Positions 8,063-62,411 of a stretch of DNA of 64,000 nucleotides are shown one piece after another (the first letter of the stretch is position 1; each line of letters starts with the position of its first letter). The stretch covers positions 20,585,476-20,649,475 of the forward strand of contig CM119267.1 in the NCBI GenBank assembly GCA_051294375.1, written 5' to 3'. The translations under genes were made by a program, and so were the position numbers. The notes beneath the pieces were generated by a model. The model was given only the letters and a program-made list of their open reading frames with translations. It was not told where the DNA came from and searched no databases. The stretch comes from Paraspadella gotoi. Taxonomy: Eukaryota; Animalia; Chaetognatha.

Positions 8063-11000
8063 TTAGTGTGACGATTTTGACGTCTCTCCAGTTTTTTTAA
8101 CGCCGGCTGGGACCCCACCGCCGGGAGCTGCTCCACCGTCACTATTGCCGTTCTTCAACTCGGGCAATTCCGCGAAAGCTTTGAAACTTTTGCAGCCTTT
8201 CGGGGCCGCCACTGCGTCGAGATACATCTCTAACCGAGGTCGAGGATGTCCGTTTAAAGTTCGAACAGAAGTTCTTAAATATGAATTGACGACGGCGGAG
8301 ATGCTAAAGTTACGAATCAACGCGTATTCAATAAATTTCGGCCCTGCAGGGGAAAAACGAAAAGCAATTAACGTATTGACAAAATAATGAAAGCTAAATA
8401 AAAAAGAATACCTTCAACGGTGAACTTGTCTCGTCTAACTTCCACTCCATCAATAAGCATCATCATCACTTTTTCCTGAAAAGATTGGAGCAAAAAACCA
8501 AGTTAAATTCATAATTTAACTTTATTAAAGAGAAACGTCCATTTTTTTTCGGGTAGTTTTAAGTATACCGCAGTGGTGAAAACAACAACCTTTTTGTCCA
8601 TTTTTTTCGTTTTTGGCGGCGAGGGTTTGCTTTCGTACGTGCGAAGATTCTTGACTCGGAACTCGAACGATAACAGCGCGGTCTTCTTCATGCTACTTAC
8701 AAACGGGGTTGGCACTAAATAGGGAATGATAAGAAAAAAGTATTGTAGTTACAACTAATAATTTTAAGGGTATAGAAAAAAATCGCTCCGAGCCAAAACA
8801 TCAACGATAAAAATGATCGGGTTGAAAAACAAAAAAAATTAAAAAACAGTTGCACTCACTTGCCACCCTAGTCATTTTAACCTTCGTCGACCAAGAGCCT
8901 TTCATCTTAGGCAACTTGGTGAGAAGGAGTCGCAGATGGAGATCGAAATATTTTTTGCGGCGCTGAGTAAGTTGCTCGGCGTTGGTGGCGGAGCGATAAT
9001 CGACGGAAGAGGCGAAGCTGTCGCCCAACGAAGTGCCGAAGGCGTAGAAAAATCGGTTGGCCATTTCGAGCTTGTCGTACTTTTGAGTTCTTTTGAGTAA
9101 AAAAGTTTTTCAAAAATTTTCAGTTATTTTTCACGATTCCGATTATTATTATCATATTTCAAGTCGTCTAAATTAAAAGAAGACATTTTCCCCACTCACT
9201 CTACGTCCTGCGAAGTCATGTTCTCAGTGGCATATTTTTCCGCGGCGCGCCTCGAAGCCACGGGAGCCATCAGATCCGGCTCGTCGACCGGCGTTTGTTC
9301 CGGTCCGTCAGGAGCTGGAAAAAAACAATTTAATGTCGAAATGCGTCCAAACCAAAGGAGTAATAATTCCAAAACTTTCCCCTTTCTAAAACTTTACCTT
9401 CCTCGAATGTGACCTTGAAGGAGATATAGGGATCGGTCTTGACTCTGTTCTCGATGAAGGAGCGGAACGCCTTGCTGATTTCCGCTTTGCTCACAGTCGA
9501 TCTTTCGAAAAGCGTCACCGCGTTTTTCCAAGAGAGTTCCGAATCAAGTCTCGGGGGGAAAATTGGGAAATACGAATCACGCGTCGCAAAAAAAAAAAAG
9601 AACAAAAAAAAGGAGAAATAATTGGGAGCCTCACTTCATCGGGGCCTTTTCTTGAATCGAGATGAACCCGCTGTGAATTTCTCTGAATGACTTCATCATC
9701 CTGATATGAAGAAGGGAGAGCGTTAATTAAAGAGAATCGCGACTTGAAAAAAAAATGTCTCTAACCCGGCGACGAGTTCCTCTATGGACGAAGACATCCT
9801 CAAGGAGTCGCCGACAAAGAGGGGCGTCGAGGAGGAATCAAGTGGAGTCACGATCGCCGTCGGTTTCGCCTGAGAGACGGGATTTTTTAATGAGGGAGCC
9901 CAGTTGCCCTTTTCATTCGTTTCGATTTCTTACGAACCTGCGAGGATTCTCCTCCCTCGGGTGATTTGGACGCGTCCTCGATCCCCGCCTCCACTTCTTC
10001 TCGCAAACGTTGAATGAGAGTCATCTTCCTGGAAAAATTAAGGGTTTTTTTTGTTTTCTATTGCGATGGCGAGGCGGATCGATGGGAAAAACTTACTTTT
10101 TTGTTTTCTCGTGCGTGACCATCGTAAGAAGATTCCTGTCTAACTTTGGAAACTGTTGTAACCAATCGCTGAACCGAGGCTGAATCTGATCTTTAGTGGT
10201 CTCCTGGAAAACGCATTATTGATTGAAAGGGACTTGGCAAATAACAAAAACGCATCCTCAAAATGAACTCACGAGCTTTCCGAGATATTTTCCAACTTTT
10301 CTCATGACATTGATGACCAGTTGCAAAGGTCGGTTATTTTCGACAGTTCCTTTTCGATGATTAAACTCTTGCAAAGGTTTACCCTGTAAATGTTTAGCGT
10401 AAGGGAGGACTCGTTTATATTATTTGCATCAACAGATCAGGAGATTACAAATTTATAGGAGAGGAAATCGCTAACGCGCTAACCTGAAAGTCCATGACCT
10501 TGAGTTCAGCAAACTCTTTCGATGGAATCTGATTGTTGATCAGCATTGAGATGGATGCGGGAGCGACCCCCTCCGACTTGACGAGTTCGATCTCTTTTCC
10601 CGACTTTGGCGCCAAGACGAACCCAGTCAATGCGGAATTCTTCAGGAATCCCAGGAAACTGAGGAAAGAGGACGAAGGTATCACAATAAGTTCGTTTATC
10701 TTCTGAAAGCCTCAACGCTCTTGAGCGATTCCCGTCCTATCGACTTCCTTTCAGCCAGAACTCAACTACTCACGGGTAGTACTTTCCACCCTTCATCTCG
10801 AGCGGTCTGTCGTACAAATTCCCGACGTTGATGAACTGTGTCATCCAGAAAGAAAAATTGCGGAAGAAAAACTCGAACTTCATTGGATCGGGCATGTTGG
10901 AAGGTGTAAACGAGCCAAGCGATGTGCCGAACTGTAAAAAGGAAAAGGAAAATGTTTTTTACAATATTAGATGTGCGAATCCTAAATTCGCCTCCCGCAT

Positions 11001-11963
11001 AGCTTAGTGAAACTCAGCTGTCCAAGCCAATGGGCGAGTTCCGGGTTCAATACCCTCACGGTCATGCTGGTTAAGTGTTATGGTGTCGGCATAAACACAC
11101 CAGTGATATGGGGTGGTTACTGCAGGTCCAAAGCTCTGAGAGCCAGCTATCGGGAGATGCCTCACACCCCGGACATCACACATCTTTCCCCGTTGCCATA
11201 CTTCATTTTTCATAGAAACATAAACTACCTTTCTGGTGATTAAAAAACAATTTTGAACTTCTGGGGAGTTGACAATTTCCGACCCATTTCTTTTTCGCCA
11301 GACCCACGAGCCACTAAGATATAAAACATATCTTAAAAGCTGCTTGTCATAACGCTATGGATTTTTATTTTATACAGTCATGTGCAAAAAAATCGTGCCA
11401 CTTTATTTCAGAATTTTAAAATAACTATATATATACTTGAATTTTTAAAAAAAGTAAAGTAAGTAAGTGAATTAAAATTTATTGAAAAATGATAAGTTTG
11501 GCATAAATTTTATTAAAATCGGGCAATCCGTTTAAGAGCAGTGATTTTTTTTAAATGAAAAAAAATTACACTGGACATCCGGAGGGATAGCCGGATAACT
11601 GGATTACCCCTGATCCCTAAATAATAATCTTAAGGTTATTGAAACATTGGACCTCTCTTTCATCGTATATTTTGAAGCTTTTAGATAAAAGTCGATTTTC
11701 CATTTGATTTTAAAACACTCAAGTTTAAAAAATCATATCTCCTAAACCACTTGACCGATTGTAATAAAATTTAGAAACATTGATTCCTTTTTTTAAAAAA
11801 ATTAATTTTCTTATATAATTTTTAAAAATATCTTTATTGAGTGTCTGGAATTTAAAGTTATAAAATGGCGCGTTTTTTTTGCACAGGATATAAGTTTTTG
11901 TATAGGTTTTGTCATGGGCAATCATTATCACCTGGTCTCCAATCCGTGCAGAAACGACAATTC
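8063..11963 (-). CDS. Uncharacterised multi-exon protein; 5' end unresolved
   Basis: About 13 short GT-AG exons join into an open frame, e.g. VRHIAWLVYTFQH...GWKVLP / KINELIVIPSSSFLSFLGFLK... / LDSELSWKNAVTLFERS... / GPKFIEYALIRNFSISAVV...KSSH*. No family recognised. A probable upstream exon (NCRFCTDWRP) lies at about 11963-11932. Confidence 0.6.
10990..11213 (+). mobile_element. tRNA-derived SINE (family C) carrying a twister-like domain
   Basis: A-box-like TAGCTTAGTGA (11000-11010) and B-box-like GGTTCAATACC (11044-11054). The twister fold follows at 11066-11147. The 3' part GAGATGCC...CATCACA...GTTGCCATA is shared with family B, and the element ends in a TTCAT-repeat tail. Confidence 0.75.
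11066..11147 (+). ncRNA. P5-type twister ribozyme fold, probably inactivated
   Basis: P5 GCUGGUU/AGCCAGC; P2 GUGU/ACAC; L1 UAUGG and UAA; P3 AGUGAU/GUUACU; P4 CAGG/UCUG; L4 UCCAAAGC; T1 CCA/UGG. The general-base G position is U and T2 has a mismatch (AC vs GC). Confidence 0.75.
11375..11890. mobile_element. Degenerate Tc1/mariner-type MITE
   Basis: Left end TA-CAGTCATGTGCAAAAAAATCGTGCCACTTTAT; right end ATAAAATGGCGCGTTTTTTTTGCACAGGATA-TA. Imperfect TIRs, TA flanks and an AT-rich non-coding interior. Confidence 0.6.
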
Positions 11964-20333: not shown

Positions 20334-20572
20334 CTTGGAGCAGTCGGTGGCCGACTCAAGTTGTAATAATCAACACAAGAAAATCAGTACAATTTTTTAT
20401 TAACTGACGTCTTGGAAAATCGACGACGATTTTCAGATTGTATTGTTGTATTGTATTGTATTGTTTTTCAAAAGAGTGGACGTGGTAACTTAAATAACTG
20501 CACAATAAAAAAGTGTTAATAAAATTTGAAATTAAAATTAACGAGTTAATTAAATTAAATGCCATCGGCTGG

Positions 20573-23500
20573 CTATGAAGTCACAGAATTGGTTTTTAAA
20601 CTTGTTCCGTTAGGATGTTGCGTCTTTTCAGAGTTTTGTGCGTGACGCCGAGATTGTGGCTGCTGTTGTTGTTGATGCGGCTGCTGCTGCTGCTGCTGTG
20701 GTTGGGCTCTATTTCCCCGTGACATCGCGGAGACTTGTCTTGCAAGCGCATCGTGATCTGAAATGAGCGACATTTTTTTTTCCTTTTGTTTTCTTAGGAT
20801 TTTTTCAACTCATTGTTCCCACCGATTGTGCTGTGCAGCATAAGGCCCAAAACGCCGGCTCGGTTGGCCATCGCCAATCGGATCGTTCGCTCCTCCTCGT
20901 ACAGTTCCTCGAGCTCCATCAAATCGCGCACCTTAAAAAAGAAAACTAAATTGAAATTAAGATCACGAAAATAACATGACTGAGCCACTCACTCTCTCCA
21001 TATCGATCTCGGCTCGTCGAAGGCGTTCCCAGTTGATGTGATTAGGACATTTCTTCTTCGGCGCCCGACAAAGACTCGGAGTTTCCTCGAACAGTTCTTT
21101 GGTCAGCGGACAACCACATATCTCGTCAGGCTCAACCTTTTTGTCCTTAAAGTGTTCGGGGCAGATGACTCGCAATCTGAGAGTTGACAGAGGAAATAAA
21201 AAAAAAAATAATTAAGGATATCGTTTCAATCATAGGAAAGGTTTAATCAAATCTTGGGAACGCCATTCGTACCGCTTGCAGTAGGTGTTCGACTCTTTGT
21301 TGAAAGCGTCGCAAAAGAAAGACTGTTCCGTCGATGTTCGTGCGAACAAAGAGCCGAAGGAGGTTTGACTCTCGAAACGGAGAAGCAGCGCTCCATGTGG
21401 GCGGGCGCGACGGGCGTTCGTCTCGTGACCGCACGTCACGCAATAGATGGTCATCTCAGTCTCGTCATCGTCGTCGATCGCGTCCATGGTCGCCTTGTAA
21501 CCTTAGCCTTTTCCACGATGGCGTCCAAGGCTTGATGCTTCTCGTCCAAATCTCCGAGGCGCTTCGAAGTCTCCATCAGCTTTTGCCGAACCTTTTCCAG
21601 CTTCTTCATGTCCAGCTGTCCGCCGTGCAACTGAGGCGTTTCAAAAAGACAACATCATCGAACTGTTCCTACTGACGACTTTCTGGCAACATATATGTAG
21701 ACCTTACCTCGACGCCTGCCATTGCTGGATGCGCTGCGGCAACGAGCTGAAAGCGGTGGTGGCAAGTTTAAGACCACAGTCGTCCGAGCAATACTTAGAT
21801 TTAGGTCGGGCCGTCCGCGTGCAGCCTGGACCGTAGCACTGAGTAAAGGTATCCTCTTTGTCCTCTTGACTGGTTTCTGTGTGCAAGCGGTTTACAATGG
21901 GCTACCTTTAAAAGTTTTATAAATCAAACTATCCAAAACCTACCGAGAAAGTCAACTCCAGAATCGAAAATCATGGAATTAGCGAAAAGATCGTTTCCGG
22001 TGGCAGAGCGCGAGCCTATATCAAAATCGCATGAAAAGGAAGAGTAACCAGATTACAATATTTACCAACTCTCTCTCACCTCTGCCTCTTTTAGTTTTCC
22101 GAATCTTTTTTTCACGGTTCCGCGACTTTTGTCCCTCGGGTACGAACGATGATGGAGGCGCGTGGACGTTTTTCAGCTTGAGGGTCTTTCGCTTGGGCTC
22201 CTGACATTACGTATTGACATGTTAAGCTAAGATAGTAATCATAATCATCATCTAGTCGCGACTTCTCACTCTCTTTTCTCACCTGGTTATCGCTATCGAA
22301 ATCCTCGTAAGAATCCGTTTTTTTCGGCCTGGACTTCGGGACAGATTTTTTCTCTGGTCTAAACAAAATTTTTTAAAAAAATTTCGGGAAATTATCGAAC
22401 GATTTGAAAATTTTGGAATGGTTAAGATGAAACCAACCTGAAGTCCGGGTCGTAGTTGTACGATTTAGTGGATTTCACATTTCTGTCATCACGGTCCTCG
22501 TCGCTGAAAATGGGGTCGCTCTCCAAATCCTCGTTGTCCTCTTCATCGTCGTAAATGTCTTCGTCATTATCGTCATCGTCGTCATCGTCGTCGCTCCCCC
22601 GATATTTCTAAAAAAAAACAAAAAAAAAACCATATATATATATAATAATATCTATTTTAATATGTGCTGAGAGTAGAAAGAAAATTAGTCTCACTTTCTT
22701 GGCGGATTTTGTGTGCGAGTGTCGAGATCGTTTGCCGAAATTGTGGCACTGTCGCCGACGACACTTTTGGCGCCGCTTGAAGGGACCTGAAAATGACCCG
22801 ACCTATGTTTTTCTTAATAAAAAAAAAAAACAAAAAACCCAAAACGAAGCGAGGATCTTAGTTTTCTCACCCCCGAATTTCGGCATGTCTTTGCAATAAT
22901 CGCACTGACCGCAATCTTCGGTTTGAAAGCAAGCTTCGCATTGACCGCATCTAATAAGGGTTAAATTTAACGAGACCGGTTACGAAGGATGAAATTGTGG
23001 CGGTATATTCACACCGCCTCACACCCAACATCCCATCCACACCACCAACTGTCCTAACGACTTCCCTCTGCGTTGGCAAAGCGAGACCGTCCTTGGGTAA
23101 CCGCCAAAACCAACAGTGAGATGCCCCATCCCAATGGGCATCACAGGCAACCCGGCTGTTGCCATAAAAAACAAAAAAGGAGAAACGTTCCACCAAAACT
23201 AAATTCTACAACCTTTTAGCATTTTTAATTTTTTTGTTTTTTTCCTTGGGGGCGGAGGTTAGGCTTGTCTTGTAGAGAATGGTCAATCCCGAGTCTTTCG
23301 CTCTGCAAACCTAATTTAAGCCAATTTTAATAACTTTTTATAATAGTCGTTGCTCATTTTTGAGCGATTACTGATTACCTACCTGACAATACCATCGCTT
23401 AATGGAGCGCGAAATTTCCTCGGAAACGCCAATGCAATCCCCGTGAAACCACTCGTTGCATTGATCGCACCCTGAAATTAAAACAGGCCATAGAGTTACA

Positions 23501-24255
23501 CTTTTCTATTTTTATATTACTTTTATGAAATTGGTACAACCAATATAAAAATTATCCATTCATTTAATAAATAAGCTATCTTGCCCCTGACTTTGGACAG
23601 GCTTTGGTGGTTTAAGGCCTCCATCACTCTTACAAGATAATTACATAGCAGGTCCCTGCAAGCTTTCAATCAAAACTCTCTCACAGTCCCGTTTATTTAC
23701 TCCCAGAGTACCTGGCTTCCCTATCAATGAAGTGGAAAATATTTCAAAGAATGTTTCAATTGTATGAAAAGACCACTCCCTTAAGTATTTACAAACGCGT
23801 CGTACCTATCATAAAGCGATTGATGTCAGGTTTGCGGCAGATGCAATACTCGAGTTTGCCGCCGACGAATGTCGACCTCCGCTCCGCGATCTCGGCGTCC
23901 GCCTCGGCGGTAGGCGAGGGCGTGTTATTCCGCTCCTCGGCGCATTCCGCTTCGCCGGCTTCGATACGAGCGTCGGAAAATTCGTCGCTACGATGACGCA
24001 AATACGTATCAATGACGATGGAGTAGAGGGAGATAAATAAATGGGGATACGATGATCGCGCTATTCTTCTCTATAGAGGATGTTCTCTTCAAGCATCGCC
24101 AGGCAAAAGCGAATTAAAGGAAACTCTCTATCTGCTCACCTGACACTCCCATCGACTCCTCCTGACTTGGCGTGGGAGCCGATCCTCCGCTCCAGCTCGG
24201 AGGCGGACATCGCTTCGTTAAGGTCGATGACGATACTGCTTCGAGGAGACTCCAT
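20573..24255 (-). CDS. CXXC1: CXXC finger protein 1 (CFP1, COMPASS subunit); several apparent frameshifts at 21310-21770
   Basis: PHD finger [29 protein letters not shown]; CXXC finger [40 protein letters not shown]; QCYGPGC...[12 protein letters not shown]; [14 protein letters not shown]; [21 protein letters not shown]. Confidence 0.93.
22996..23166 (+). mobile_element. Family B short element, internally deleted copy (antisense in a CXXC1 intron)
   Basis: Shares the head TGTGGCGGTATATTCACACCGCCTCAC, the middle and the 3' end ...GGCAACCCGGCTGTTGCCATA with the reverse complement of 62157-62411. It lacks about 38 nt covering twister T2/P3/P4. Confidence 0.85.
23523..23772 (-). mobile_element. 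Family A ~250-bp interspersed element, copy 1 (sense in the CXXC1 intron splitting the PHD finger)
   Basis: Highly similar to 33210-33459 and 59654-59902. Confidence 0.9.
23577..23639 (-). ncRNA. P5-type twister ribozyme (family A copy 1)
   Basis: UAUCUUGU AA GAGU GAUGG AGGCCU UAA ACC AC CAAA G CCUG UCCAAAGU CAGG G GCAAGAUA. 8-bp P5, T1 UGG/CCA, T2 AC/GU, conserved GA and UAA. Predicted cleavage between 23614 and 23613. Confidence 0.78.
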
Positions 24256-31300: not shown

Positions 31301-34300
31301 AACAGTGATTTAAAATTATTTTTAGGAGGGGGGGGGGAAATAATCTTCAACCAACCGTCCCCGGAGACGGCGGAGCCATCATCCGCGGCGTTGTGCTGAT
31401 GCTGCAGACTTCCTGGACTCGACTGGACAGCGCCGAGTTTCGATCTCGACTTCTTTCCTCCAGACGACGACGCCGGTTTTCGCGGCGTCACGAGCGGAGA
31501 GGAGGAGGGCGAGTGGCCGGGCGTCGAGTTCGTTCCGTGAAGAAAATGAGAGCCTTGCAAGATTGAAGTCAAAAGTCACGATTTCTTTCTTGACAGCTTT
31601 ACTTTTTTCTTCCCCCCCCCCGCTTACCTGTAGACGGCGCGAGGGCGGATGCGACTTGAAGATGATCCGGCAGCGTTTCTGGAAGTCCAGATATTAAGCT
31701 CTCTACGTGGATTCGTTCCTATAGAAAGGAGAAAAAATATTTATTAAGTCACTAATATCAGGAAAAGAAAAGAAAATTTCAAGCCAAACCGGCGAGGCGT
31801 CGGGAAAGGCGGAGGAGATGGAGCGAAAAAAATGCAGCAGAATTCCGAGTTCTTGCGCGGTCATGAGCACCGCGGATCGGGTCGACCCGGCGTCGCCTGT
31901 TGGATAAACGGTAAAATAAAGCCGACTTATCGATTCTCTGGTCCCCCCCAATACTACTAACCTTGCGCTGCGCTTCCCCTTCCTGCTTCGAACGGCGCCG
32001 CGGGTGCCTGCCCATCGACAACATTGGAATCCAAAAGGCCCTCGATCATCAGGCTCAGAGAATTCGCCTGACGGAAAAGGTAAGTCGGTATAAATAGAAG
32101 CAAGCGCATCCAACAAGGACTCGAATAAAGAAACTCACTTGAAACTTGGAGTAAAGATCTCTGACTTTGGGATCGATGTCCTCTCGTTTCGAGACGACGA
32201 GAACTTGTAAAATTTGAGCCACTTGCATCAGGTTGTGTCTGTAAACATTTTTTCTCGTTTAAAAAAGTTTTAAAAAGNNNNNNNNNNAAGTACTGAAGAG
32301 AGAAAATTGGGATACGTCATTTTTCCTACCTGGAAATGTAGGAGATGGAGATGTTGTCGGTGATGCCGAGGGGTTCCGGGTCGCAGATAGCAGGGCAGAT
32401 AAAAAGCGAAAACACGAGATCCGCGCAGACTGCCAACGCCTCCGACTTGAAGTAAGAAGAATTTACGAAGAACAATAATGGTAATTTACTCTGCTGAACT
32501 TATTTAAAACTTACCTGATTCGTACCCCCGCCTTTTTTCAATATTACGGCGTAGAGATGGTTTACCAATATGCGTATGCTCTGAAAAAAAAAAAAAAATT
32601 ATAAGCATTGATCAATTGAAATATAATTCAATACTACGAACATAGTAAAATAATTTTTTTTTTATACCTGCGGAAAGCAATACATGTTGCTCTTGATGCA
32701 CTGGATGAATCTGTTGGCAAAGAGAAAAAGTTTGTTGGTCGTGAATTCTCTATACTTGGCGACGCGGCCGGCGTGATCGGCGGCGTCGGGCCGGCCGAAC
32801 CGCCGAAGGCGCTCTTGTGGGGGGAAACGGACGAACGCCTTGTCCGGGTCGATGTCGTAAAACCTTGAAATAAAAATGATAGGCGAAAGTAAAAATTTTT
32901 AAAGAAACAAATTTTTTTTGCATCATTTTCGCTCAAGAGAAAACGGAGATTGAAACCAAAATTCTTTAAAAGGGAAGCAGCTTCAAGAAATCTAACCATT
33001 CATCGTCCATAAGTATCCTCATGATTGGTTCGTAAAGAGAGGCGGTAAGGAAGAGTTTGGCGGCGTAAAGCGATTCCGAAAAGAGCTTGAAGGTGATGTG
33101 GAAGGCGGTGCTGCTCTTTCGAATCAATCGTCGAGGGTCAGAGGACGCAGGGACCTGTTTCATTTAAACGAAATAAGAATTAGAGTCTGGATGAGAGTCG
33201 TCATTAGGTAATGAAATTGGTACAACCAGTATAAAAATTATCCATTCATTTAATAAATAAACTATCTTGCCCCCGACTTTGGACAGGTTTTGGTGGTTTA
33301 AGGCCTCCATCGCTCTTACAAGATAATGACATAGTATGTCGCTGCAGGCTTTCAATCAAGACTCTCTCACAGTCTCTTTTATTCACTCCCAGAGTACCTG
33401 GCTTCCCTATCAATGAAGTGGTATAATGTTTCAAAGAATGTTTTAATTGTATGAAAAGATTAGGTTTCGTACCTGCAGCCGAATAATTTCCGATAATAGG
33501 CAGAGCATCAGGTTTTCGTCCTCGGCCAGCAAGCAGCTGTTGTAAAGTGACGTGACGATGACCCTCGCGACGGATAAAAGCCCGCCGGAGATGGTCCCGG
33601 GCGGCAACGCGCTCTCGCCCTGAGAGGAACACGAATATGGTAATTGTGCATGACTTTGACATTCATTATTCAAAAAATTATTTGTGTCACCTTGACCAAA
33701 GCCAGCGCCAACGCTTTGGGGCTGTGACGAAATCTCTCTAATGCTTCGCCGTAACGGCTAACGTCAGCGTGACCCAACGATCGGTAAGCGTCTACGAACT
33801 TGACGGCTTCGATCGTATTTGATCTGAGGTAAATTTAATTAAATAATATTTACCCAATTTAAAAAAAAAAACATCTCATTTGCTAAAAAAGAAAAGAACT
33901 TACCTTTGCACGCAAGAAGCGGGTGACGTTGAAGAGTGCATAGTTTCGGAATTCTGTCGCTGATGGGCGCAGACCCAAACCTAGAGAAAAGGCACACTCG
34001 TTAAAAAAGCAAAGACCCTAACCTCTCATAAAAAAAGAGAAGACGTAATTTTCATAAGTCTGACCTGTTGCGCCAAGCCCTGAGACTGCCGCGAGACCTC
34101 CTCATGAAGTTGAACCAACTGACGTTTGGTGTTTTGCACGTAGAGCGTCTCTCGTTTGAGGTGCGCCGAAAGTTTGAGGAGGTCTTCGACGAGGGAGGAA
34201 GAGGAGGATCCGGCGGACGACGACGCCGAGGAGGAGACGGGATGGCCGAGGGCGGATGGAGGGTTGGGAGGAGGAAACGTCGGGCCCGGAGGACCGGGCG

Positions 34301-37310: not shown

Positions 37311-37331
37311 TGTGGCGGTATATTCACACCG
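37311..37331 (+). repeat. Isolated family B terminal hairpin motif
   Basis: TGTGGCGGTATATTCACACCG is identical to the family B head; the downstream sequence is unrelated. Confidence 0.7.
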
Positions 37332-37627
37332 TCTTCTACAAAATTAGGCTATTTCGTCAATATCTCGAAGGGCATTAAAAATACTTAAACGAAACCAGTT
37401 TTAATCATTAAAGCGTAAAAAACTGTATGGGGGTGTGTGTTTCATATTATAAAGGGCATTCCTGGAGATTAATACGCTTCAGAGGTCTATGGGAAAACGA
37501 ACCGTAAAAATTAACAGAAAAAGAAACAAAAAGGATAATTTTTCGAGGGTAAAAAATTAAAGGAATTCAGATATTATGCAATGAAAAATGGTCGAGCGTA
37601 ATAGTTAAAGGCATAAAAAAATGCCTA

Positions 37628-37741
37628 AATTTTATTTTCACCGACCACGGTTTTGGCGTCTAAATAAAAACTACCTTAACCTTAACTACTCTTAATCCTA
37701 ACCCCTCCCTTTCCCTGGTTGGCGAAAGTAAAAGTAACCCC
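37628..37741. repeat. Short inverted-repeat element with AACCCT/AACCTT-like core (Helentron/DINE-like)
   Basis: ATTTTATTTTCACCGACCACGG...GGCGTCT...(CCTTAA-like)n...CTGGTTGGCGAAAGTAAAAGTAACCCC; similar to 53675-53838. Confidence 0.6.
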
Positions 37742-44063: not shown

Positions 44064-46211
44064 TTAAACAAAGAAAATCAAGTACGAATACATCGTTATT
44101 TCCGCGCCACTTTTGTGAGGATTAGGATTTTTTCCCAGAAAAAATCCTCGATAATCGATTTTAAGTTTATTCCCTTTTTTGGCATCGGTAACGTCAATGA
44201 CCCAGGGATCGACCTGGCGCCCATTGCACCACCCTCCGCGTCCGTACAACCAGGTCCCGTATTCGTTGGGAGTCGTGCCCGCGGGTACGGTCACGGCGCA
44301 ACCCAACTCTGTACCAGCGGCGGAAAAGGTTTCGTTAAATACTTTATCGTTGACGAAAAAAGCGTGGGACGAAACGCAAAACTCGGCGCAATTGTTGTCG
44401 TCTTGACCGTGACCCGTGATGACGGAGACTATTTCCACCTTAGCGACTTTATCCGGGACTTTGAAATAAAGCGGCTTGTAATCGTCGTTATATTTGGCGT
44501 CGAACATGCCCCCGCGAAAGAGAGGAAACGCCGCAGTCGGTCGCGCTACGTTTGTCGCTTCGTTTTTGGTGAAGAGAAACCTGAGTGAAGGTTTCCACGG
44601 CTTGGCCCACCAAGCCGTCTTCATGTTTATCTGGCAGAATCCGTCGCGTGATTGCAGCAGAGGCAAGAGAGAGGAAACGTCCGTCACCCAACGACCGATC
44701 CGACGGCGAAAGGGAGAAATCCACCGACCCAACTCCGACCCGCAGAGGTCGCTTTTTTCGTCGCAGCAAACGTAAAGTTGAACAGTGTGGTCCCAAGGGG
44801 GACAGTCCTTGTCGAAATCTCCGGGGCACGAAAGCGACATATCGAGGTAAGCCGAGGTGAGGTTTCGCATGACGTCGACGGGGGGCATCGCCACTCGGGC
44901 TTCGACGCCACGATGACCTTGCATGATCGTAAAGTTGAAAGCCTCGACGACGAATGAACTTTGAGCGGTACTGGATGATTTCGTTAAAATTCTCTTCACC
45001 CTGTCCCGAGTCTTTCGCTCGAAATCGAACCAGGTGGACTGCCAAGCGAAAAATCTCAGCGAAGGATACAAATATGTTCCGCATTCTCTTAGCTTTCCTT
45101 CGTGATTCACGCCGAAACACAGTCGCAAGCCGGGAGAATGTTGAAACCTGACGGTGAGATTGGCGGATCGGATTATGCGTTCGTCGTGAAGAATTGACGA
45201 AGAGGGAATGTTAATTTTCAAGGCGCATTCCTCCTCGCCGGCGCAGTTCATGTCGTGCAAGGTCTCGCCGGGTTGGCTCATAATCACCGCGGCGACGGCG
45301 CCTGCCGTTTGAGCGTTGTAGATCTTCTTCGCGAAGCTGCAGTCGCCGGTGATAAGGACGGCGACCTTTCCGCTTATTTTTTCGAGTGGACCACATCCGT
45401 TGGAGGCGAGGTATTTGGTGGGCAACATGGAGTCCTTGAATTGGGCGGCGGACGGCAACCAATCGTAGTGAGCGTCGAGTCTACTGATGACCCAAGGGAA
45501 TCTGGATATACTGTCTGTCAACAAGACCTGATCCAATCCGCACTCGTGCTTGTCGCACTGCCATTGATAAAAGACGCTTGAGATCCAGTTTCCGGTATGT
45601 GCAACTGAGGTCGTCGCGAAAAGACATTGACGGTCGACGAAGCCTTTGGCGGCGGCGAATCCGGATCTCAGGGCATAGTCCTCGGCGTATCGAAGCTGCG
45701 TCCTCATCCACAAGACTTCCCCGAGCGCCGCCTCGTCCGAGGCCGAAAAGAAAATGAAAAGAGCGTTCGAAGGTGAAGAAGTGACGAAGTCGCGGAGAGA
45801 AGAATCGTCTGTCCACATTGCCAGGGACGAACTGCTCCGGTTGTTGTAAACCACGAATAACAGGGAAACATTTTGAAAGATCGAGTCATGAGGATAGTTG
45901 ATTTGGCCGGAGAGAGTGAAGAGGGTAAACGGTAAACTTGAATCGCCCGGTAAGGCTCCGTTCGAAGATACGACACCGTGGTTACCTAATTCAGTCGTCC
46001 TTAATCCGTTACTCTTCAACTGTGTGTTTCGATTCGCCACCAAATATTTGCGCGAAAAAGTATTGGCATAACTTTTCGGAACTCCGTGGAAGAAATCCGG
46101 AATGTCATTGACGGAAATGTCTGGGCGACGCCGATCCAACGCAGAGACCAGACAACTGCCAAATAGCACAAGCAAAAATCCAAATAGGGAGTTTTTCTTG
46201 AAAACGCTCAT
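44064..46211 (-). CDS. Secreted protein with a protease-associated (PA) domain and peptide-N-glycosidase F-type C-terminal domains, intronless
   Basis: Signal peptide MSVFKKNSLFGFLLVLFGSCLVSA. PA domain GCGPLEKISGKVAVLITGDCSFAKKIYNAQTAGAVAAVI. PNGase-F-like motifs CPPWDHTV, ELGRWISPF, WVTDVS, VITGHG, CAEFC and GTWLYGRGGWCNG. Confidence 0.88.
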   Translation of the reverse strand: MSVFKKNSLFGFLLVLFGSCLVSALDRRRPDISVNDIPDFFHGVPKSYANTFSRKYLVANRNTQLKSNGLRTTELGNHGVVSSNGALPGDSSLPFTLFTLSGQINYPHDSIFQNVSLLFVVYNNRSSSSLAMWTDDSSLRDFVTSSPSNALFIFFSASDEAALGEVLWMRTQLRYAEDYALRSGFAAAKGFVDRQCLFATTSVAHTGNWISSVFYQWQCDKHECGLDQVLLTDSISRFPWVISRLDAHYDWLPSAAQFKDSMLPTKYLASNGCGPLEKISGKVAVLITGDCSFAKKIYNAQTAGAVAAVIMSQPGETLHDMNCAGEEECALKINIPSSSILHDERIIRSANLTVRFQHSPGLRLCFGVNHEGKLRECGTYLYPSLRFFAWQSTWFDFERKTRDRVKRILTKSSSTAQSSFVVEAFNFTIMQGHRGVEARVAMPPVDVMRNLTSAYLDMSLSCPGDFDKDCPPWDHTVQLYVCCDEKSDLCGSELGRWISPFRRRIGRWVTDVSSLLPLLQSRDGFCQINMKTAWWAKPWKPSLRFLFTKNEATNVARPTAAFPLFRGGMFDAKYNDDYKPLYFKVPDKVAKVEIVSVITGHGQDDNNCAEFCVSSHAFFVNDKVFNETFSAAGTELGCAVTVPAGTTPNEYGTWLYGRGGWCNGRQVDPWVIDVTDAKKGNKLKIDYRGFFLGKNPNPHKSGAEITMYSYLIFFV

Positions 46212-47148
46212 TTTTACCTAAAAAAAATTAATTTAAGCTTTGATATGCATTAATAAAATAAGAAATAGATTTATATTATCAAATAATATAAAAATCAATA
46301 ACTTTTTTCAATATCTTTTTACTTTAACTGAACTACAACAGTAAAAACTGCTATTGTCGTTCGTTGGAACCCTAAAAATGTATTTTTTACAAAGCAAATG
46401 TTGAAATTTTCGTCAAAAAAAAAATCGCTTCGATTCACTCAATGTGAGAGAAAAGTTTTAAAAAATGCATAACTTTGATGGAAAAATTTTCTCGTTTTGT
46501 TGGCACGCGTTCTTTACACACTAATAATTATGTCTTTTGAGATAATTACGTACGATTTTAGGCACCAGTTCGATGAGTACGATGGGAGAGTCAAAATTTT
46601 TTTTTTGTCGACAAAGAGTTCATTTAAACAACTCGTCAAGTGCACCGAAAAAGGAAATCATTTGTAGGAAAAAAAATTTTCGTTCTTGAACTTTAAGCGA
46701 ATCTGAAATTAAATAGTTGGTCCCAAAGGTCGGTTTAGAAATTTGACACGAAATGTTTTCGTACATTAGCACTGAAATCAGCGATTGACCCTAAAAAAAT
46801 AAAATAAAACGGGCGAATAACAGAGGAATTAAACCTAAATATTGCAAAATCAAACGAAATCCATAGCCTAGAATAGCAGTAACATAACCAGAATCTGAGA
46901 TGAGTCAGCTAATCGTAACCGGTCTTTCAAAACATTTAGTAAATATATTAGAATTTTAACTCTTAAAATTACGAAACAACATTCCAGAATACTAATTTAT
47001 AAATATATTAGTAAAACAATGCAATGGATAATTTCCAGTAAAACTAAAAAATAGTCACAATACTGAGATCTTGAATCTTAAAAAAATTCTGTAAACACAA
47101 AGGATATAAAAGTAAATAGAGATAAAAATGCAAATTATGGCTTCTCAG

Positions 47149-53374: not shown

Positions 53375-53418
<44 letters not shown>

Positions 53419-54613
53419 CATGCCGTTGTTTACCAATGAACCGCAGACCTCGCCCTTTGGTAATAGAGCGAAGGTCCCTCAGATTCGGAAGGATTACGAC
53501 AAAGCGGACCTCGAAATCACCCTTAAGTCATAAGATTATTTATTTCGTTTTGGCCCTGTCGTAGTGGGTGGGCTTTCTTGATTCGAGTCTTGAATAAGGA
53601 CGAAGAAAGTTCAGAAAAACAACTTTGAGGAAACAAACGACACGAGGATATACTTAAAAGATTCAATAGGCGGCAAAATTTTACTTTCGTCAACCGGGGT
53701 TTTGGCGTCTTTTGAAAAACTACTTAAAAATAATTACAAAAAAATTATAAAAAACCCTCTTAACCCTACCTACCCCTAAGCCCCAGCCTTAACCTTTAAC
53801 CCCCTCTCACCCCGGTCAGCGAAAGTCAAATTAACCCCGATAGGCTACCAAAAAAATATGCAGGAAGAAATTAAAAGAAAATCTCGTACACAAGTAACAT
53901 TCAATGATAAACCTTCTTCGGTGGCGGCATGGGGCTGAGGATTTCCGGTTCTGCCAGCGGCGCCAACTTAGGGGGCGCCTTAGTTATGGGAGCCTCTTCC
54001 TGCAAGGTCGCCGTTCCATTGGCGTCTGAAACGAGGTGGAGCGAGTTGTCAAAAAAATTCGAGCACATATTCAACGAGTTAGTGATTGACTTACCACCGT
54101 TGTACGCAATAATCTCAGGCGACGGTGTCGGCGCAATAATTCTGCGGGGAAATAAAATGTTTTTCAATTGCGCGTTTAACCGGATCTTCTTTTATTTCTC
54201 GGATCGAAAAGGCGAATTATTTTTAATCGAAATTAGAGCAAAACGTTCGGAGGCCGAGAGATTCAGTCTTTTGTTGTCAATTTTAATCAAAGAGATTTTT
54301 GATCGATTTTAAAAGGAAAAAAAATAAACTAGAAAAATATTGTCCGATTCAAACCAGGATTGAGCTCGGAGAGACAGAGAAAGCGAGGGTGAATAAGCGA
54401 ACAATTTAAAGGAGAAGGTTAACCGGTTTTAATTTTTTGGGGGTCGAGATAAAAAAAAGCAATACACTGATAGAGAGCTATTTATGTCTCTTCTTCCCTT
54501 TTACTCCTCCTCCTCCTGGCTCACCTGATCTCGTTGTAAGACTTCAGAGCTACGGGTGGGGCCGATGATTCGGCCTCCTTGTCCCGACGAAACCCGGAAC
54601 AGGTGTTGCCCAT
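50712..54613 (-). CDS. GKAP/DLGAP (SAPAP/vulcan)-family protein
   Basis: GKAP domain DGHYFLEK...AGKVRAFIGKASLLTSKKFKQFKGLC...DLQGFWDLIMIQVDEL...LKSNDW; AREEARKRLIAAKR; Pro-rich exon. The first coding exon MGNTCSGF... (54613-54525) joins the next exon in phase 2. Confidence 0.85.
53375..53418. repeat. (GA)n microsatellite, intronic
   Basis: Direct reading. Confidence 0.95.
53675..53838. repeat. Short inverted-repeat element with AACCCT-like core (Helentron/DINE-like), intronic
   Basis: TTTTACTTTCGTCAACCGGGG (53679-53699) is an imperfect inverted repeat of CCCCGGTCAGCGAAAGTCAAA (53810-53830). The core consists of TAACCC-like units. Confidence 0.65.
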
Positions 54614-57302: not shown

Positions 57303-60300
57303 TTAGAAATTAATGGCGGATTCGTTGGATTCCGTAAGGTTGGAGTGAGCGGCGACCGACGCCAGCGCGTGTTCGGAAGAACGACTGTCTGGAGTGCTAG
57401 AGGGCGCGACGATGGGCGGAGACGAAAATCTCATGTGCATGTCCGAGTAAGTGGAGACTGAGGAAGATGGGGAGGTTACGCTCGCGACACCGTGGGGCGA
57501 GACGGAAGCGGGAGACGAAAACTATAAAAAAAAGGGATATTTTTTTTCTTCTTTTGGGGGCATAAAAGCGAACCCATTCTTGAATCTTCACACAGCAATC
57601 AATGTGCAACGATAAAAACGATTTTGATTTAGCTTTCGAAGAGAAACAAACAAAAACGAAAACCGTCGGCTGAATGTTAATTACTACTACTGTTTTTGTT
57701 TGTGTTATTAATAAAAAAAATTGTTAAGAAAAGTTGCCTCTTTTAACTCCACCCAACCAATCGAAGGGGGGGGGACCTACGCACGTTGAGCGCGGACGTG
57801 TTTGTCGGCGACTGCGTCGGCGTCCGACGATCCGATGAGTCCGTATGAAAATGCCTCAAGTCCGTATGAGCGCCGGTGGGAGACATTAGGTGCTGCTCAA
57901 CGTTGAGCGTCGTGTGTTGTTGTTGATGTTGTTGTTGTTGTGAATGGTGAGCGTAAAAGGAATCATGTTTGACGGAAGGGCTGGGCATTTTGGACGGGGA
58001 GGGAGTCTTCGCAGGACTTTCTGAACGGTCGTGGCCGGTTAAATCTGAAATTGTAAAATGGGGGACAAGGATTCGAAATCGTCAAAAACTACGTACAAGT
58101 GCATTGCTCACTGGACTAACAAATTTACTTTTCAAACATTTTCCCTTTATATTTCTAAACTGATTTGTTAAGTTATTGTTATTGTATCAATAATTGCTGG
58201 GATCATTTCTCACTCGAAGTATATTCGGCCATTTCCCGTTCGTATCTCTCCTTGTCCGCCACGGCCAGGACTTCGTAAGGTTGCTTTTCCTCCGGGGTCA
58301 GAACCGACCATTGAGCGCCCAGAATCTGGAAAGTAAATGGCAGAAGTAGTGAGGTGGAGACGAAAAAAGGAAGATGATAAAGTGGCTCACCTTGGCAATG
58401 TCTCCGACCGAACGAGTAGGATCCTTCTCCTTAATTTTGTTCCTGTTCTCGGCGCAGAAAAAGAAGAAAGGCGTCAGACTTCGCTTGGGTTGATTCGGAT
58501 CTTTTTTTATCTTTTTCCTTTTCGGGGTGACGCCGTCGGGCTATTGTTTAGAAAATGAGGGTGGTGTGAGGAAGGGAAGATTAAAATAACACAGGCTATT
58601 ATAAAATTCGATTGTGCTTACGCGTAAAGAAAGGGCAAAAAAGGACTATAAAACTATTTCGTCGCAACAGATTCAATAAACCGTAACAAAACAAAAAAAC
58701 AAAACGGCTCAAAATCTCGACGAACCGTGGAAGGCGGCTTCATCTGGAGGTCGTAACGCGTTTTGTCTTGTTCCGCCATCTCCTCGAATCTCTTTCGTTC
58801 CCCCAGCGTCATCGTTTTCCACCGGGCAGAGCATTTCCTAGACAAAGGGGAGTGGGCTTTCATCTCGTTAACTGCGACGTCAAGCGCAATTCTGGACAAC
58901 TGTCGAAAATGGTTACTCGGTAAAATCACCGAGGTGCTTCTCTTCCCCCCCATTCCCATTTAGGGAAACCACCGACTGTTGTTCTTGCACAAACAAAAAC
59001 CACCCAAAAACTCTCGCTGTTCTGACGACGCAGCAACTTTCAGATAAGAGAGACGCTCCCTTCTTCTGACCTTGAGAACTCGGAGAATTCGACCTTCTGG
59101 TCGGGATGTTTTCTTCGGTGGACGTCGTGACATATCTGAGGGGGAGAAAATTCGGGGTTATAATTCCTATTTTTTGCTTAGTTAATGATTGTATTATTGT
59201 ATTATTTGAGGAGGGTAATTTTTTTTTGGCATTCAAAAAACCACGTGACGTAGACCCAGACAAATGGAGACGCAGTAAAGGGAAGTAAATGTGCAACGAG
59301 GAAGAACCAAGACCTGCACGAAAAATGCGTAGGAGGTGCGCGGTTGCGGAATTTGAGCTTGTCTCATCGCGTTGTCGGCATCGCTTTTTCTAGAGTATTT
59401 CTTCGTTTTCTTTCTCTTCGTTCCTGACTCTGAGGAGAAAAAAGGTGTTATTTTAATGAACATGCGGTGAAGAGGTTGAAAAGAGCTTGTAAAAACCGAA
59501 AAAGAGACCCGCCTAACTCACCATCGTCGGAACTTTGTATGTGGGTAAGGACGATGTGACGTTTCAACTCCTCTTGGCTGACGGCTTGATAAGGACACTC
59601 TGTGGAGAAGTGATTAATATCATGCTTATTTAAAATGTTTTACCATCTTATGAAATGAAATTGGTAAAACAATATAAAAATTATCCATTCAATTATTAAA
59701 TAAGCTATCTTGCACCTGACTTTGGACAGGCTTTGGTGGTTTAAGGCCTCCATCACTCTTACAAGATAATGACATAGCAGGTCCCTGCAAGCTTTCAATC
59801 AAGACTCTCTCACAGTCTCGTTTATTCACTCCAAGAGTACCTGGCTTCCCTATCAATGAGGTGGTATAATGTTTCAAAGAATGTTTCAATAGTAAGAAAA
59901 GAATTTTTGAATTTTTTTAGTTATTTATATGCGTGAGTCATTGGCGAAATCAAATCAGCTGTGGCTGAGTTAGGTTCAGACTGACAGTCTGTAAGAGCAT
60001 AAAAATCTTAAAAGCATAAGGATCATAGCAATCGCATAAAAAAATCATGACAAACTTTGAAACTCAAACCAAAAATCATATTTGATACAGGAAAACTAAG
60101 TTTAATATATAATTAATTGGTTTAATATATATATTTGAATATTGCTTTTTGCCCCTTTTTATTTCCAATATTATTTTTTCCTATTATTTTTATTTATCTT
60201 TTTAAATTTTATTTTATTTTTTATTCCCTTTTTCCAAATACGTTTATTCATTTTATTTTTATATTAATTTTATCTTAATTTTTTCTCATACTAATTTTTT

Positions 60301-61036: not shown

Positions 61037-62156
61037 GAGTGTTATAAATAGTTTTAACGAGAACCTAGTTTTTGATACAAGAAAGATGTACACACGTTAA
61101 AAATATAAAAAAATATGGCATCAATAAATATAAGAATTACATAAATCATACTCGATTTCTTTTCCCGCGTAGTTTTATTTTTAACTAAAATGACTAACTT
61201 TCGTATGGATTGGCAAAAGTACATACAATTAACTGCGAAACAAGTGCATTGTGAATTAAAAAGCACTGTTAATTGATAAAATTTACAAAAAATGTAGCCA
61301 ATCTCTTATAAATGGGCCGCAGGAAAAGCGCAAGAAACACTTTTTATATTCACTGAATATTTCCTGAAAACGGTTAAAAGTGCAAGAGGAATTGGACACG
61401 TAGTAGAAAAATTTGTTCGTCCATTACGCACTTAACAACCGAATTGTGGACGAAATAATCTACGAATGTATACAGAAGGCTTCATATTATAAAATGTGGT
61501 ACCCCTTTTTTGTGACCAGAATCTGTTCCTACCAAACTACCTGATCGAATTTCATGAAATTTTACATTTAGTCTTAATGACGATATAAATGGAACTATCG
61601 AGGCGAATTTTAATATTCAACAAGAGATACAGGGACCTGGGGGGTGGACCCCTGGGGGGCCAAAAAAACCTAAATATTTTGTTTCATTTTTTAAAATTTT
61701 TTTAGTGGCATCAGGTGCATTTACGTTTTAAACATATAAAAAAACATTTTAAAACTAAAATTGAAAAATTTTCAATAATTAAGAATGCATGGTTCATCAT
61801 TTTACTTCTAATTTTCCTAAATTATTCCAAAACTGACTTGAACTGCTGATGTTCATGAAGCTGAAAATTAAGGTAAACTAATATTTCTGTGGTAATTAAT
61901 ACGTTTTTGTGGAAAAGTAAACGTCTATGCAACTGTTCAAAACAAAAATAATGAAAAAATTTCAAAAAAAATTTTGACCATTTATTGCCCCTAAGGGTGA
62001 CCCCTCCGGGGCCCCATATCTCGGCTCAGGTGTCAAATATTGAAATTCGCCTCGATAGTTCTATTTATATTCACATAGGGATCGTTCATACTAAATTTCA
62101 ATAAATTAGGTCCAGCAGTTTCCTCGGAACGTGTTCTGGTCAAAAAAAAGGGGTAC

Positions 62157-62411
62157 TATGGCAACAGCCGGGTTGCCTGTGATGCCCATTGGGATGGGGC
62201 ATCTCACTGTTGGCTTTGGGGGCTTCCGACCCTCAGTGATGCCTCCAGTCACTGGCGCGGTTACCCTAGGACGGTCTCGCTTTGCCAACGCAGAGGGAAG
62301 TCGTTAGGACTGTGGATGGAACACTACGCCTGGGATGGTGTGTTCCCCCTCTGAGCCAATGGATTTGGCTGACAGATGGTGGACGTGAGGCGGTGTGAAT
62401 ATACCGCCACA
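62157..62411 (-). mobile_element. Family B short element, longest copy, with GTAC duplication
   Basis: Inserted in the MITE right arm with GTAC on both sides (62153-62156 and 62412-62415). 5' hairpin GGCGGT-ATATTCAC-ACCGCC. Two 3' hairpins, GATGCCC/GGGCATC and GGCAAC/GTTGCC. Confidence 0.9.
62209..62289 (-). ncRNA. P5-type twister ribozyme with intact catalytic core (family B)
   Basis: GUUGGC AAA GCGA GACCG UCCUAGGG UAA CCGC GC C AGUGA CUGGAGGCA UCACU G AGGG UCGGAAGC CCCC AAA GCCAAC. P5 6 bp, P3 5 bp, T1 CCG/CGG, T2 GC/GC. Predicted cleavage between 62263 and 62262. Confidence 0.88.

What the first reader, a model, noticed from the sequence alone, without database searches (positions are those of the whole stretch)
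10990..62411. Three distinct short-repeat families share a P5-type twister ribozyme module (6 copies in 64 kb)
Seen in the sequence: families A (23523-23772, 33210-33459, 59654-59902), B (22996-23166, 62157-62411) and C (10990-11213) have unrelated 5' heads. Each contains the same ordered elements: P5 - AA(A) - P2 - GAnnn - tiny P1 - UAA - P2' - T2 - C - (P3) - G - P4 - UCnnAAG(C/U) - P4' - P5'. Pairing covaries between families: T1 is UGG/CCA in A and C versus CCG/CGG in B, T2 is AC/GU in A versus GC/GC in B, and the P5 and P4 stems differ in sequence yet pair. Established: this order is the P5 circular permutation of twister, which cleaves at U^A with the L1 G as general base; twister is known from non-LTR retroelements. 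Inference: this is a modular 'swappable head + twister + ~50-nt tail' class of non-autonomous retroelements, with the cut site about 90-110 nt from the 3' end. A and C also share a TTTCA/TTCAT tail, suggesting a common partner LINE. I cannot tell whether these families are already catalogued.
Basis: partly seen in the sequence, partly recalled or inferred. Interest (0 to 1): 0.92.

Follow-up and report, generated by a model that had tools for sequence, protein, structure and literature searches.

The report
Jumping repeats with pair-up twister ribozymes
Three short repeat families with different front ends in this animal's DNA, two of them very abundant, carry the same twister-type self-cutting RNA fold, which is predicted to cut mainly when two copies pair up and which likely comes from Naiad-type jumping genes; cutting itself is untested.

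Summary
Mostly confirmed, with corrections. A P5-order twister fold with covarying pseudoknots lies in A1, A3 and B2 (3 strict descriptor hits; 0.02 expected per shuffled window). A2 has one extra mismatch, B1 lacks half the core, and the single C copy has U at the general-base G. Contigs of 4 public runs show A and B as very abundant, dispersed, 3'-anchored repeats with intact majority cores. B and C, not A and C, share the tail; C has a tRNA-like Pol III head. The same palindrome-armed P5 twister lies near the 3' end of 4 of 12 published Naiad consensus ends that I read, three with family A's bulged P2. This scan noted the Naiad twister before on other DNA. Best reading: non-autonomous, probably Naiad-mobilised 'twister retrozymes' (A may be plain Naiad 3' ends). 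No partner element, tandem source or cleavage was shown. New variant of a known kind.

The parts
23525..23789 (-). Family A copy A1, in a sense-strand intron of a CXXC1-like gene; extends 17 nt further 5' than A2 and A3
   Evidence: (shared sequence to 23789)
23576..23640 (-). A1 P5-type twister fold (P5 to P5'); general-base G 23625; predicted cut U23614^A23613; A23628 probably bulged in P2
   Evidence: 23628 is one of only two positions between 23576 and 23640 that vary in 8% or more of contig depth
23615..23620 (-). A1 self-complementary P1 (AGGCCU); identical in A2 (33301-33306) and A3 (59744-59749)
33210..33458 (-). Family A copy A2, in a sense-strand intron of a GAPVD1-like gene, flanked by a 7-bp direct repeat (33203-33209 and 33459-33465)
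   Evidence: gene name recalled, VPS9 domain downstream
33262..33326 (-). A2 twister fold, one extra P2 mismatch; predicted cut U33300^A33299
59655..59902 (-). Family A copy A3, upstream of an acceptor site of an HMG-box gene, same strand; no target duplication found
59705..59769 (-). A3 twister fold; predicted cut U59743^A59742
62157..62411 (-). Family B copy B2, full length (255 nt), inserted with a 4-bp duplication (GTAC) into one arm of an inverted-repeat element
62209..62289 (-). B2 twister fold with P3; general-base G 62276; self-complementary P1 62264-62271 (UCCUAGGG); predicted cut U62263^A62262
22996..23166 (+). Family B copy B1, antisense in an intron of the CXXC1-like gene; lacks T2, P3, P4, L4 and part of the head; its P1 has a copy-specific change that breaks the palindrome
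   Evidence: 96-99.5% of contig depth at 23094 has the palindromic letter
37311..37334 (+). Isolated fragment of the family B head (23 of 24 letters match)
10990..11213 (+). Family C element, antisense in an intron: tRNA-like head + twister fold + B-like tail
11000..11054 (+). Pol III A box (11000-11010) and B box (11044-11054) of C; the only B box in the window
   Evidence: 0.03 such pairs per shuffled window; box consensus recalled; Rfam and ARAGORN call no tRNA
11066..11147 (+). C twister fold with P3; U at the general-base position 11079; self-complementary P1 11084-11091 (UGUCGGCA); predicted cut U11092^A11093
11154..11200 (+). 3' tail shared by C and B (hairpin, then GTTGCCATA)
   Evidence: 0 of 2000 shuffles reach the score
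61461..62453 (.). Inverted-repeat (MITE-like) element that received B2; its other arm shows the empty site

Best explanation
A, B and C are short non-coding repeats with unrelated heads that each carry a P5-order twister fold with a self-complementary P1 about 90-120 bases before the 3' end; they are likely non-autonomous retroposons copied by a Naiad-type Penelope-like element, and the ribozyme is predicted to cut well only as a pair. Shown: the fold and its covariation; the palindromic P1; the abundance, dispersal and sharp 3' ends of A and B; target duplications at A2 and B2; the B-C shared tail; the Pol III boxes of C; the same twister design in published Naiad 3' ends. Inferred mechanism: a lone copy cannot form a stable P1 hairpin, so lone transcripts (including host pre-mRNAs that contain a copy) would cut poorly. 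Two copies in a tandem or abundant transcript would pair through the palindrome, swap halves and form two active sites, releasing unit-length RNA that could be ligated. The Naiad reverse transcriptase/endonuclease would start at the tail and copy through the uncut or re-joined site, which gives dispersed single copies with an intact internal ribozyme. New heads (a tRNA-like Pol III promoter in C) would be recruited in front of the same 3' module. Family A may instead be 5'-truncated ends of the Naiad itself.
For: Descriptor hits 3 strict + C relaxed against 0.02-0.04 by chance. T1, T2, P5 covary between families. P1 is self-complementary over its whole length in A (6 of 6 pairs), B2 (8 of 8) and C (8 of 8); hairpin +5.6, +2.7, +2.9 against duplex -9.1, -10.0, -9.5 kcal/mol; a 4-nt loop is self-complementary by chance in 14% of cases, 0.3% for three if independent. 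The Rfam P5 consensus has a longer P1 hairpin; 25,916 contigs of run X4 laid on B1+A1, summed depth about 9,000 (B) and 30,000 (A) times the unique spacer in X1 (no copy number by the tool's own note); 423 contigs in X4 leave A's 3' end and 157 in X6 leave B's 3' end into unrelated flanks; majority cores intact; A's depth falls from 3' to 5' with no step at the predicted cut. Hammerheads of Penelope-like elements have a 1-2 bp helix with a palindromic loop and need dimers (PMC4209133 passages; PMC6765202 section 11). Animal retrozymes are proposed to be non-autonomous derivatives of Penelope-like elements, with dispersed monomers (bioRxiv 10.64898/2026.07.22.740005). [quoted passage not shown] In its File S5, 4 of 12 3' ends that I read by eye (Naiad-1_Movir, Mgal, Bpla, Mphi) hold a P5 twister with palindromic P1; the three mytilid ones have family A's three-letter P2 strand and CCACC junction, two also its P4 letters. 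Imperfect P1, P2 and P4 are tolerated by natural twisters (PMC11662667 section 32).
Against: No cleavage data. No reverse-transcriptase or GIY-YIG match among the 164 open frames given to Pfam (149 of the 234 frames of 75-149 aa plus 15 longer ones), no genome was held, so no Naiad is shown in this animal. No abundant head-to-tail joint among the 15 of 385 joints shown: no tandem source seen. Naiad twisters have an insertion after UAA that A, B and C lack, and 8 of 12 Naiad ends read have no twister; outside the core no similarity to Naiad tails was evident by eye. P1 is reported dispensable in type-P1 twisters, so monomers may cut without pairing. B and C are related, so the three palindromes are not fully independent. 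An invariant majority core may reflect recent amplification from one source, not selection. Rfam gathering score not reached. Whole-element folding of A is not significant (z -1.67).
Confidence: 0.55

Rival explanations
1. Family A is not a separate non-autonomous family but the abundant 5'-truncated 3' end of an autonomous Naiad; only B and C are derived short elements. (Differs from the best explanation for A only.)
For: A depth rises 5' to 3', several 5' ends occur, and 101 contigs in X4 continue beyond 23789 with partly shared letters (agreement 0.59). Naiad 3' ends are reported as short, very abundant 'unknown' repeats (PMC8557442 section 7). A's core is the closest to mytilid Naiad twisters.
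Against: A2 and A3 start within 1 base of each other and depth drops near 23772, as for a defined unit; the 5' extension was seen for 30 letters only and no coding sequence was reached.
Confidence: 0.4
2. One reading: LINE-dependent SINE-like elements with a monomer-active twister.
For: C has a tRNA-like head and a short repeat-like end; A2 has a 7-bp duplication; twisters are known in RTE LINEs (PMC8501958; PMC7761336 passage); P1 defects are tolerated.
Against: RTE twisters lie at the 5' end and the insertion starts at the cut; here copies span the cut with no depth step. The palindromic P1 is unexplained. The A-C tail match is not significant. All three A copies lie on the sense strand of host genes, two inside short introns, which fits a poorly active monomer better (n = 3, weak).
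Confidence: 0.2
3. The fold is an inherited but catalytically unused structure, kept as part of the signal that the reverse transcriptase recognises or simply carried along.
For: C has lost the general-base G and one T2 pair; copies are inserted uncut; Rfam score below threshold.
Against: G, UAA, both pseudoknots and the palindrome are kept through compensatory changes between A and B and in the majority of contigs; 94% of natural twister candidates tested were active (PMC11662667 abstract; type-P1).
Confidence: 0.15
4. Family B is the solo LTR of an LTR-type retrozyme.
For: B starts with TG, has short imperfect inverted ends and a 4-bp duplication at B2, as plant LTR retrozymes do.
Against: B ends in CATA, shares that end with tRNA-headed C, and contigs leave both ends into unrelated flanks with no common internal sequence among the loose ends shown (24 of 2,063).
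Confidence: 0.05

Closest known systems
Type-P5 twister ribozyme (Rfam RF02684; Roth et al. 2014, not read, recalled; permutations described in PMC10085705 passages)
   Same: Order of elements, G-A before T1', UAA cut site, L4 loop, both pseudoknots, P4, optional P3, open P5.
   Different: P1 is a 6-8 nt palindrome that cannot form a stable hairpin; P2 has a bulge (A) or an A.C pair (B); below the Rfam gathering score; in animal repeats; activity untested.
Naiad Penelope-like elements (Craig et al. 2021, PMC8557442), with the twister noted by earlier findings of this scan
   Same: P5 twister with palindromic P1 near the 3' end (4 of 12 consensus ends read); family A's P2/T2/P4 detail; 3'-anchored, 5'-variable, very abundant copies.
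   Different: No EN-RT frame, about 250 nt instead of 3.4-4.4 kb; no insertion after UAA; B and C have their own heads; no (TA)n target, partial tandem or inverted copy in the window. The paper itself reports no twister.
Metazoan non-LTR retrozymes and minimal hammerheads of Penelope-like elements (PMC7229834, PMC4209133, bioRxiv 10.64898/2026.07.22.740005)
   Same: Non-coding units of 150-400 nt with one internal small ribozyme whose weak helix ends in a palindrome; dispersed monomers; likely dependence on a Penelope-like element.
   Different: Twister, not type I hammerhead; no tandem array or circular RNA shown here.
Schistosoma SINE-like hammerhead elements (as reviewed in PMC6765202 section 11)
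   Same: Pol III-type head plus internal self-cleaving ribozyme (family C).
   Different: Twister instead of hammerhead; C is single and not tandem in the window; its one copy lacks the general base.
T-variant twisters of Perere-3 / RTE LINEs (PMC8501958)
   Same: Twister in a non-LTR retroelement, weak P1.
   Different: Those lie at the 5' end, the insertion begins at the cut and flanking sequence completes P1; here the ribozyme is internal, near the 3' end and in the P5 order.

Membership tests
Twister ribozyme, type P5 | Order P5-P2'-GA-T1'-P1-UAA-P2-T2-(P3)-P4-L4-P4'-P5' | tested here: met
   A1, A2, A3, B2, C; B1 lacks the second half
Twister ribozyme, type P5 | Pseudoknots T1 and T2 pair, with covariation | tested here: met
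   T1 3/3 pairs in all five; T2 2/2 in A and B2, 1/2 in C; letters differ between A and B. No R-scape test.
Twister ribozyme, type P5 | General-base G and cleavage-site UAA | tested here: met
   Met in A1-A3, B1, B2 and in the contig majority of A and B; not met in the single C copy (U for G)
Twister ribozyme, type P5 | Stable P1 hairpin | tested here: not met
   Hairpin +2.7 to +5.6 kcal/mol; forms only as a two-copy duplex by calculation
Twister ribozyme, type P5 | Rfam RF02684 gathering score 37.6 bits | tested here: not met
   25.8 bits for A1 and A3; none for A2, B, C
Twister ribozyme, type P5 | Site-specific self-cleavage | not testable with these tools
   Only contigs were available; they cannot show RNA ends
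Non-LTR retrozyme (metazoan) | Type I hammerhead in each unit | tested here: not met
   No hammerhead family among the Rfam matches; the ribozyme is a twister fold
Non-LTR retrozyme (metazoan) | Tandem units of 150-400 nt | tested here: inconclusive
   Unit size fits; all window copies are single; no abundant head-to-tail joint among 15 of 385 joints shown
Non-LTR retrozyme (metazoan) | Expressed as linear and circular monomer RNA | not testable with these tools
   Run X9 holds a spliced host joint and 1,695 contigs on the stretch, which shows no independent transcript
Naiad Penelope-like element or its dependant | N-terminal GIY-YIG + RT reading frame | tested here: not met
   None in the elements; none among 164 frames scanned in the window; genome not held
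Naiad Penelope-like element or its dependant | 3'-anchored copies with 5' truncation and high copy number | tested here: met
   Family A; B has a defined 5' end; C not tested
Naiad Penelope-like element or its dependant | 3' end homologous to a Naiad of the same genome | not testable with these tools
   Only design and core similarity to Naiads of other species
Naiad Penelope-like element or its dependant | Partial tandems, inverted 5' copy, (TA)n targets | tested here: not met
   Not seen at the 6 window copies; many Naiad families have no listed target preference
tRNA-derived SINE (family C) | Internal Pol III A and B boxes at tRNA spacing | tested here: met
   11000 and 11044, 0.03 expected; no cloverleaf call
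tRNA-derived SINE (family C) | Multi-copy, with target duplication and LINE-derived tail | tested here: inconclusive
RTE/Perere-3 T-variant twister | Twister at the 5' end, insertion starting at the cut | tested here: not met
   Internal, 88-121 nt from the 3' end; no depth step at the cut in A or B

The most novel reading that the evidence does not exclude
A twister-based parallel to the hammerhead retrozyme world: Naiad elements use a dimer-gated P5 twister, and short parasites with interchangeable heads, including a tRNA-headed Pol III SINE, have captured that 3' module and spread to thousands of copies. The palindrome acts as a switch that keeps single copies in host introns uncut and lets paired copies cut and circularise: the first natural twister that needs a partner, and a SINE mobilised by a Penelope-like element.
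Probability: 0.35. Interest if true: 0.88.

Novelty: new variant of a known kind. Interest (0 to 1): 0.72.

Why it matters
It would extend twister ribozymes from the 5' ends of RTE LINEs to the 3' module of very abundant short animal repeats that Rfam misses, and show that the weak-helix-plus-palindrome switch known from hammerheads arose again in an unrelated ribozyme. The 65-80 nt cores without the Naiad insertion are a simple substrate for testing a dimer-dependent twister and for the open question of what ribozymes do in Penelope-like retrotransposition, including in Naiads, which were reported to lack hammerheads. I found neither a dimeric twister nor a twister in Penelope-like or SINE-like elements in the listings of 9 paper searches; subscription papers and Dfam/Repbase were not searched.

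Tried and rejected
Exact-pattern scans found no relatives: metagenome contigs 0 for a B/C core pattern and 0 for an A core pattern; viral contigs 0 and 0. Earlier findings by sequence: 0 look-alikes for B2 and A3; none on this genome. No RNA holder on record was listed; no raw reads, so no RNA ends. Only B1+A1 were laid against contigs; B2, A3 and C were not, which leaves C's copy number and majority sequence open. ARAGORN found no tRNA. Minimum-energy folds do not recover the pseudoknotted core; z -1.67 for A sense, -0.49 antisense, -3.09 for B2 sense, -1.79 antisense. A circular fold or end-to-start junction of A or B gave no gain. Joints between B and A ends were rejected as evidence of linkage: unique spacers between two repeats give such contigs. 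The B1 row was misregistered by one base and is replaced. A protein tree placed the host on a long branch among animals with no named relative (quick tree, 40 of 120 homologues). Most motif look-ups in the Naiad supplement hit coding sequence by chance. Lünse et al. 2017 is not held; PMC5408937 was not read. No covariance model was built: five cores with a large P3 difference were too few. Supplements of the bioRxiv retrozyme preprint were not seen and may list related families.

Full report
Setting. The window is animal DNA with short introns: Pfam finds Myb-like, CpG-binding, VPS9, CBS, N-glycanase, flavoprotein, GKAP and HMG-box pieces, all on the minus strand. The best relatives of the 717-aa protein are 44% identical animal proteins and a quick tree does not place the host.

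The observation. I wrote a descriptor for the P5 order (G-A, T1', P1, UAA, P2, T2, C, P4, L4; twister anatomy recalled, consistent with the Rfam consensus). It gave 3 hits on both strands of the window, A1, A3 and B2, and C when the G was relaxed; 100 dinucleotide shuffles gave 0.02 and 0.04 hits on average. T1 is UGG/CCA in A and C and CCG/CGG in B; T2 is AC/GU in A and GC/GC in B; P5 pairs fully with different letters in each family. The fold is therefore real. Three statements need correction. B1 lacks 38 nt with T2, P3, P4 and L4. The C copy has U at the general base and a T2 mismatch, and A2 an extra P2 mismatch. The significant shared tail is between B and C (0 of 2000 shuffles), not A and C (245 of 2000); the heads are unrelated. 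Rfam gives only 25.8 bits for A1 and A3 against 37.6 and partial twister-P1 matches for B2 and C.

What the repeats are. Contigs of four runs of the same organism were laid on B1 and A1. Summed depth in X1 is about 9,000 times the unique spacer at B (332,221 against 37.7) and 30,000 times at A (1,152,343); this is no copy number, since short contigs overlap. More directly, 274 and 149 contigs of X4 leave A's 3' end, and 80 and 77 of X6 leave B's 3' end, into unrelated sequence (agreement about 0.4). So both families are dispersed and sharply 3'-anchored. A's depth falls from 3' to 5', several 5' ends occur, and 101 contigs continue past 23789 with partly shared letters. B has a defined 5' end. 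The segment missing in B1 is present in the majority, with a 7-bp P3, and B1's changes in P1 and P5 are its own (96-99.5% of depth has the other letter). Between 23576 and 23640 only two positions of A vary in 8% or more: 23584 (U.G to U-A in P5) and 23628. There is no depth step at the predicted cut, and no abundant head-to-tail joint among the 15 of 385 joints shown. B2 sits in one arm of an inverted-repeat element with a 4-bp duplication, the other arm showing the empty site; A2 has a 7-bp direct repeat; A1, A3, B1 and C have none. A1 and A2 lie in sense introns that would be about 60-70 nt without them, B1 and C in antisense introns, A3 upstream of an acceptor on the gene's strand. C begins with Pol III A and B boxes 44 nt apart, the only B box in the window (0.03 pairs expected).

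The P1 palindrome. The 'tiny P1' is AGGCCU in A, UCCUAGGG in B and UGUCGGCA in C. Each pairs with a second copy of itself over its whole length. Calculated hairpins cost +2.7 to +5.6 kcal/mol; the duplexes give -9.1 to -10.0. The loop letters differ between families and are self-complementary each time (14% by chance for one, 0.3% for three if independent; B and C are related). This is the design of metazoan type I hammerheads: a 1-2 bp helix III with a palindromic loop, poor as monomer, active when two copies fold together (PMC4209133, passages; PMC6765202, passages and section 11). Against it, P1 defects hardly lower cleavage in natural type-P1 twisters (PMC11662667, sections 31-32), so monomers may still cut.

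The likely partner. Earlier notes of this scan on other genomes pointed to P5 twisters with palindromic P1 in Naiad Penelope-like elements; I had noted the palindrome before, the Naiad link came from them. I checked it in File S5 of Craig et al. 2021 (PMC8557442; passages, sections 6-7, supplement parts 1, 11, 21, 22, 26). Of 12 consensus 3' ends read by eye, out of 54, four hold the full P5 twister with a palindromic P1: Naiad-1_Movir, Mgal, Bpla and Mphi; eight do not. The three mytilid cores have a three-letter P2 strand followed by ACC-type T2 and C (CCACC), which pairs if the second letter of P2' is bulged; family A has the same pattern, and its bulged letter is the variable 23628. Mgal and Bpla share A's P4 letters. 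The Naiad versions carry an extra near-palindrome after UAA that A, B and C lack. The paper reports no canonical hammerhead in Naiads, strong 5' truncation and abundant short 3' ends. A 2026 preprint derives animal hammerhead retrozymes from Penelope-like terminal repeats and describes dispersed monomers; it does not mention twister (abstract, first part and passages). The RTE-linked twisters are at 5' ends and start the insertion (PMC8501958, abstract and introduction; PMC7761336 passage), which does not fit. No Naiad is shown in this animal: no RT or GIY-YIG match among 164 frames scanned, and pattern scans of public contigs were empty.

Mechanism. Shown: fold, palindrome, abundance, ends, duplications, B-C tail, Pol III boxes. 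Inferred: single copies cut poorly; paired copies swap halves through the palindrome and cut at U^A; the Naiad enzyme primes at the tail and copies through the uncut or re-joined site, leaving dispersed monomers with an internal ribozyme; heads are exchanged in front of the 3' module. Odds: fold real 0.95; A and B cores able to cleave in some form 0.75; pairing needed or strongly helpful 0.5; Naiad-type partner 0.6. A may be truncated Naiad ends (0.4).

Verdict. It works like a PLE-dependent retrozyme but fails membership (no hammerhead, no tandem shown), and it is not an Rfam-grade P5 twister (P1, score). I found no report of it in 9 paper searches (listings only), Dfam and Repbase unsearched. 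New variant of a known kind; interest 0.72.

Noticed in passing
PMC8557442 File S5, parts 21 and 26; outside the window: Five of the 12 Naiad 3' ends read (Pmar, 1_Pfla, 2_Pfla and, by table order, Tgra and 2_Skow) lack the twister but share another motif at the same place: CGGGTG, a palindrome that differs in each, CAGG, then GCTTAC and CACC. It could be a second, undescribed pair-up RNA motif.
   Followed up: no
window 37311-37334 (+): Only the first 24 letters of the family B head, without the rest of the element.
   Followed up: partly
window 61461-62453: MITE-like inverted-repeat element of about 740 bp without B2; it dates B2 as the later insertion.
   Followed up: partly
window 10933-11228, 23473-23805, 33155-33472: Host introns would be about 60-70 nt without the repeats; single insertions enlarge them four- to five-fold.
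   Followed up: partly
window 23525-23772 (-): The 5' and 3' arms of family A pair into a long stem around the ribozyme in the predicted fold (z -1.67, not significant); Naiad_Bpla shows similar flank pairing by eye. A also has TTTCAT near both ends.
   Followed up: partly
window 23308-23381: Run X9, listed as RNA by guess, has a contig that skips a 72-nt CT..AC intron of the CXXC1-like gene, so it does hold spliced RNA.
   Followed up: no
window 44064-46217 (-): Intronless 717-aa frame with PA and N-glycanase (PNGase F) domains in a region of intron-rich genes.
   Followed up: partly
window 37601-37679 and 53650-53728: Two 79-nt stretches 71% alike, possibly another old repeat.
   Followed up: no
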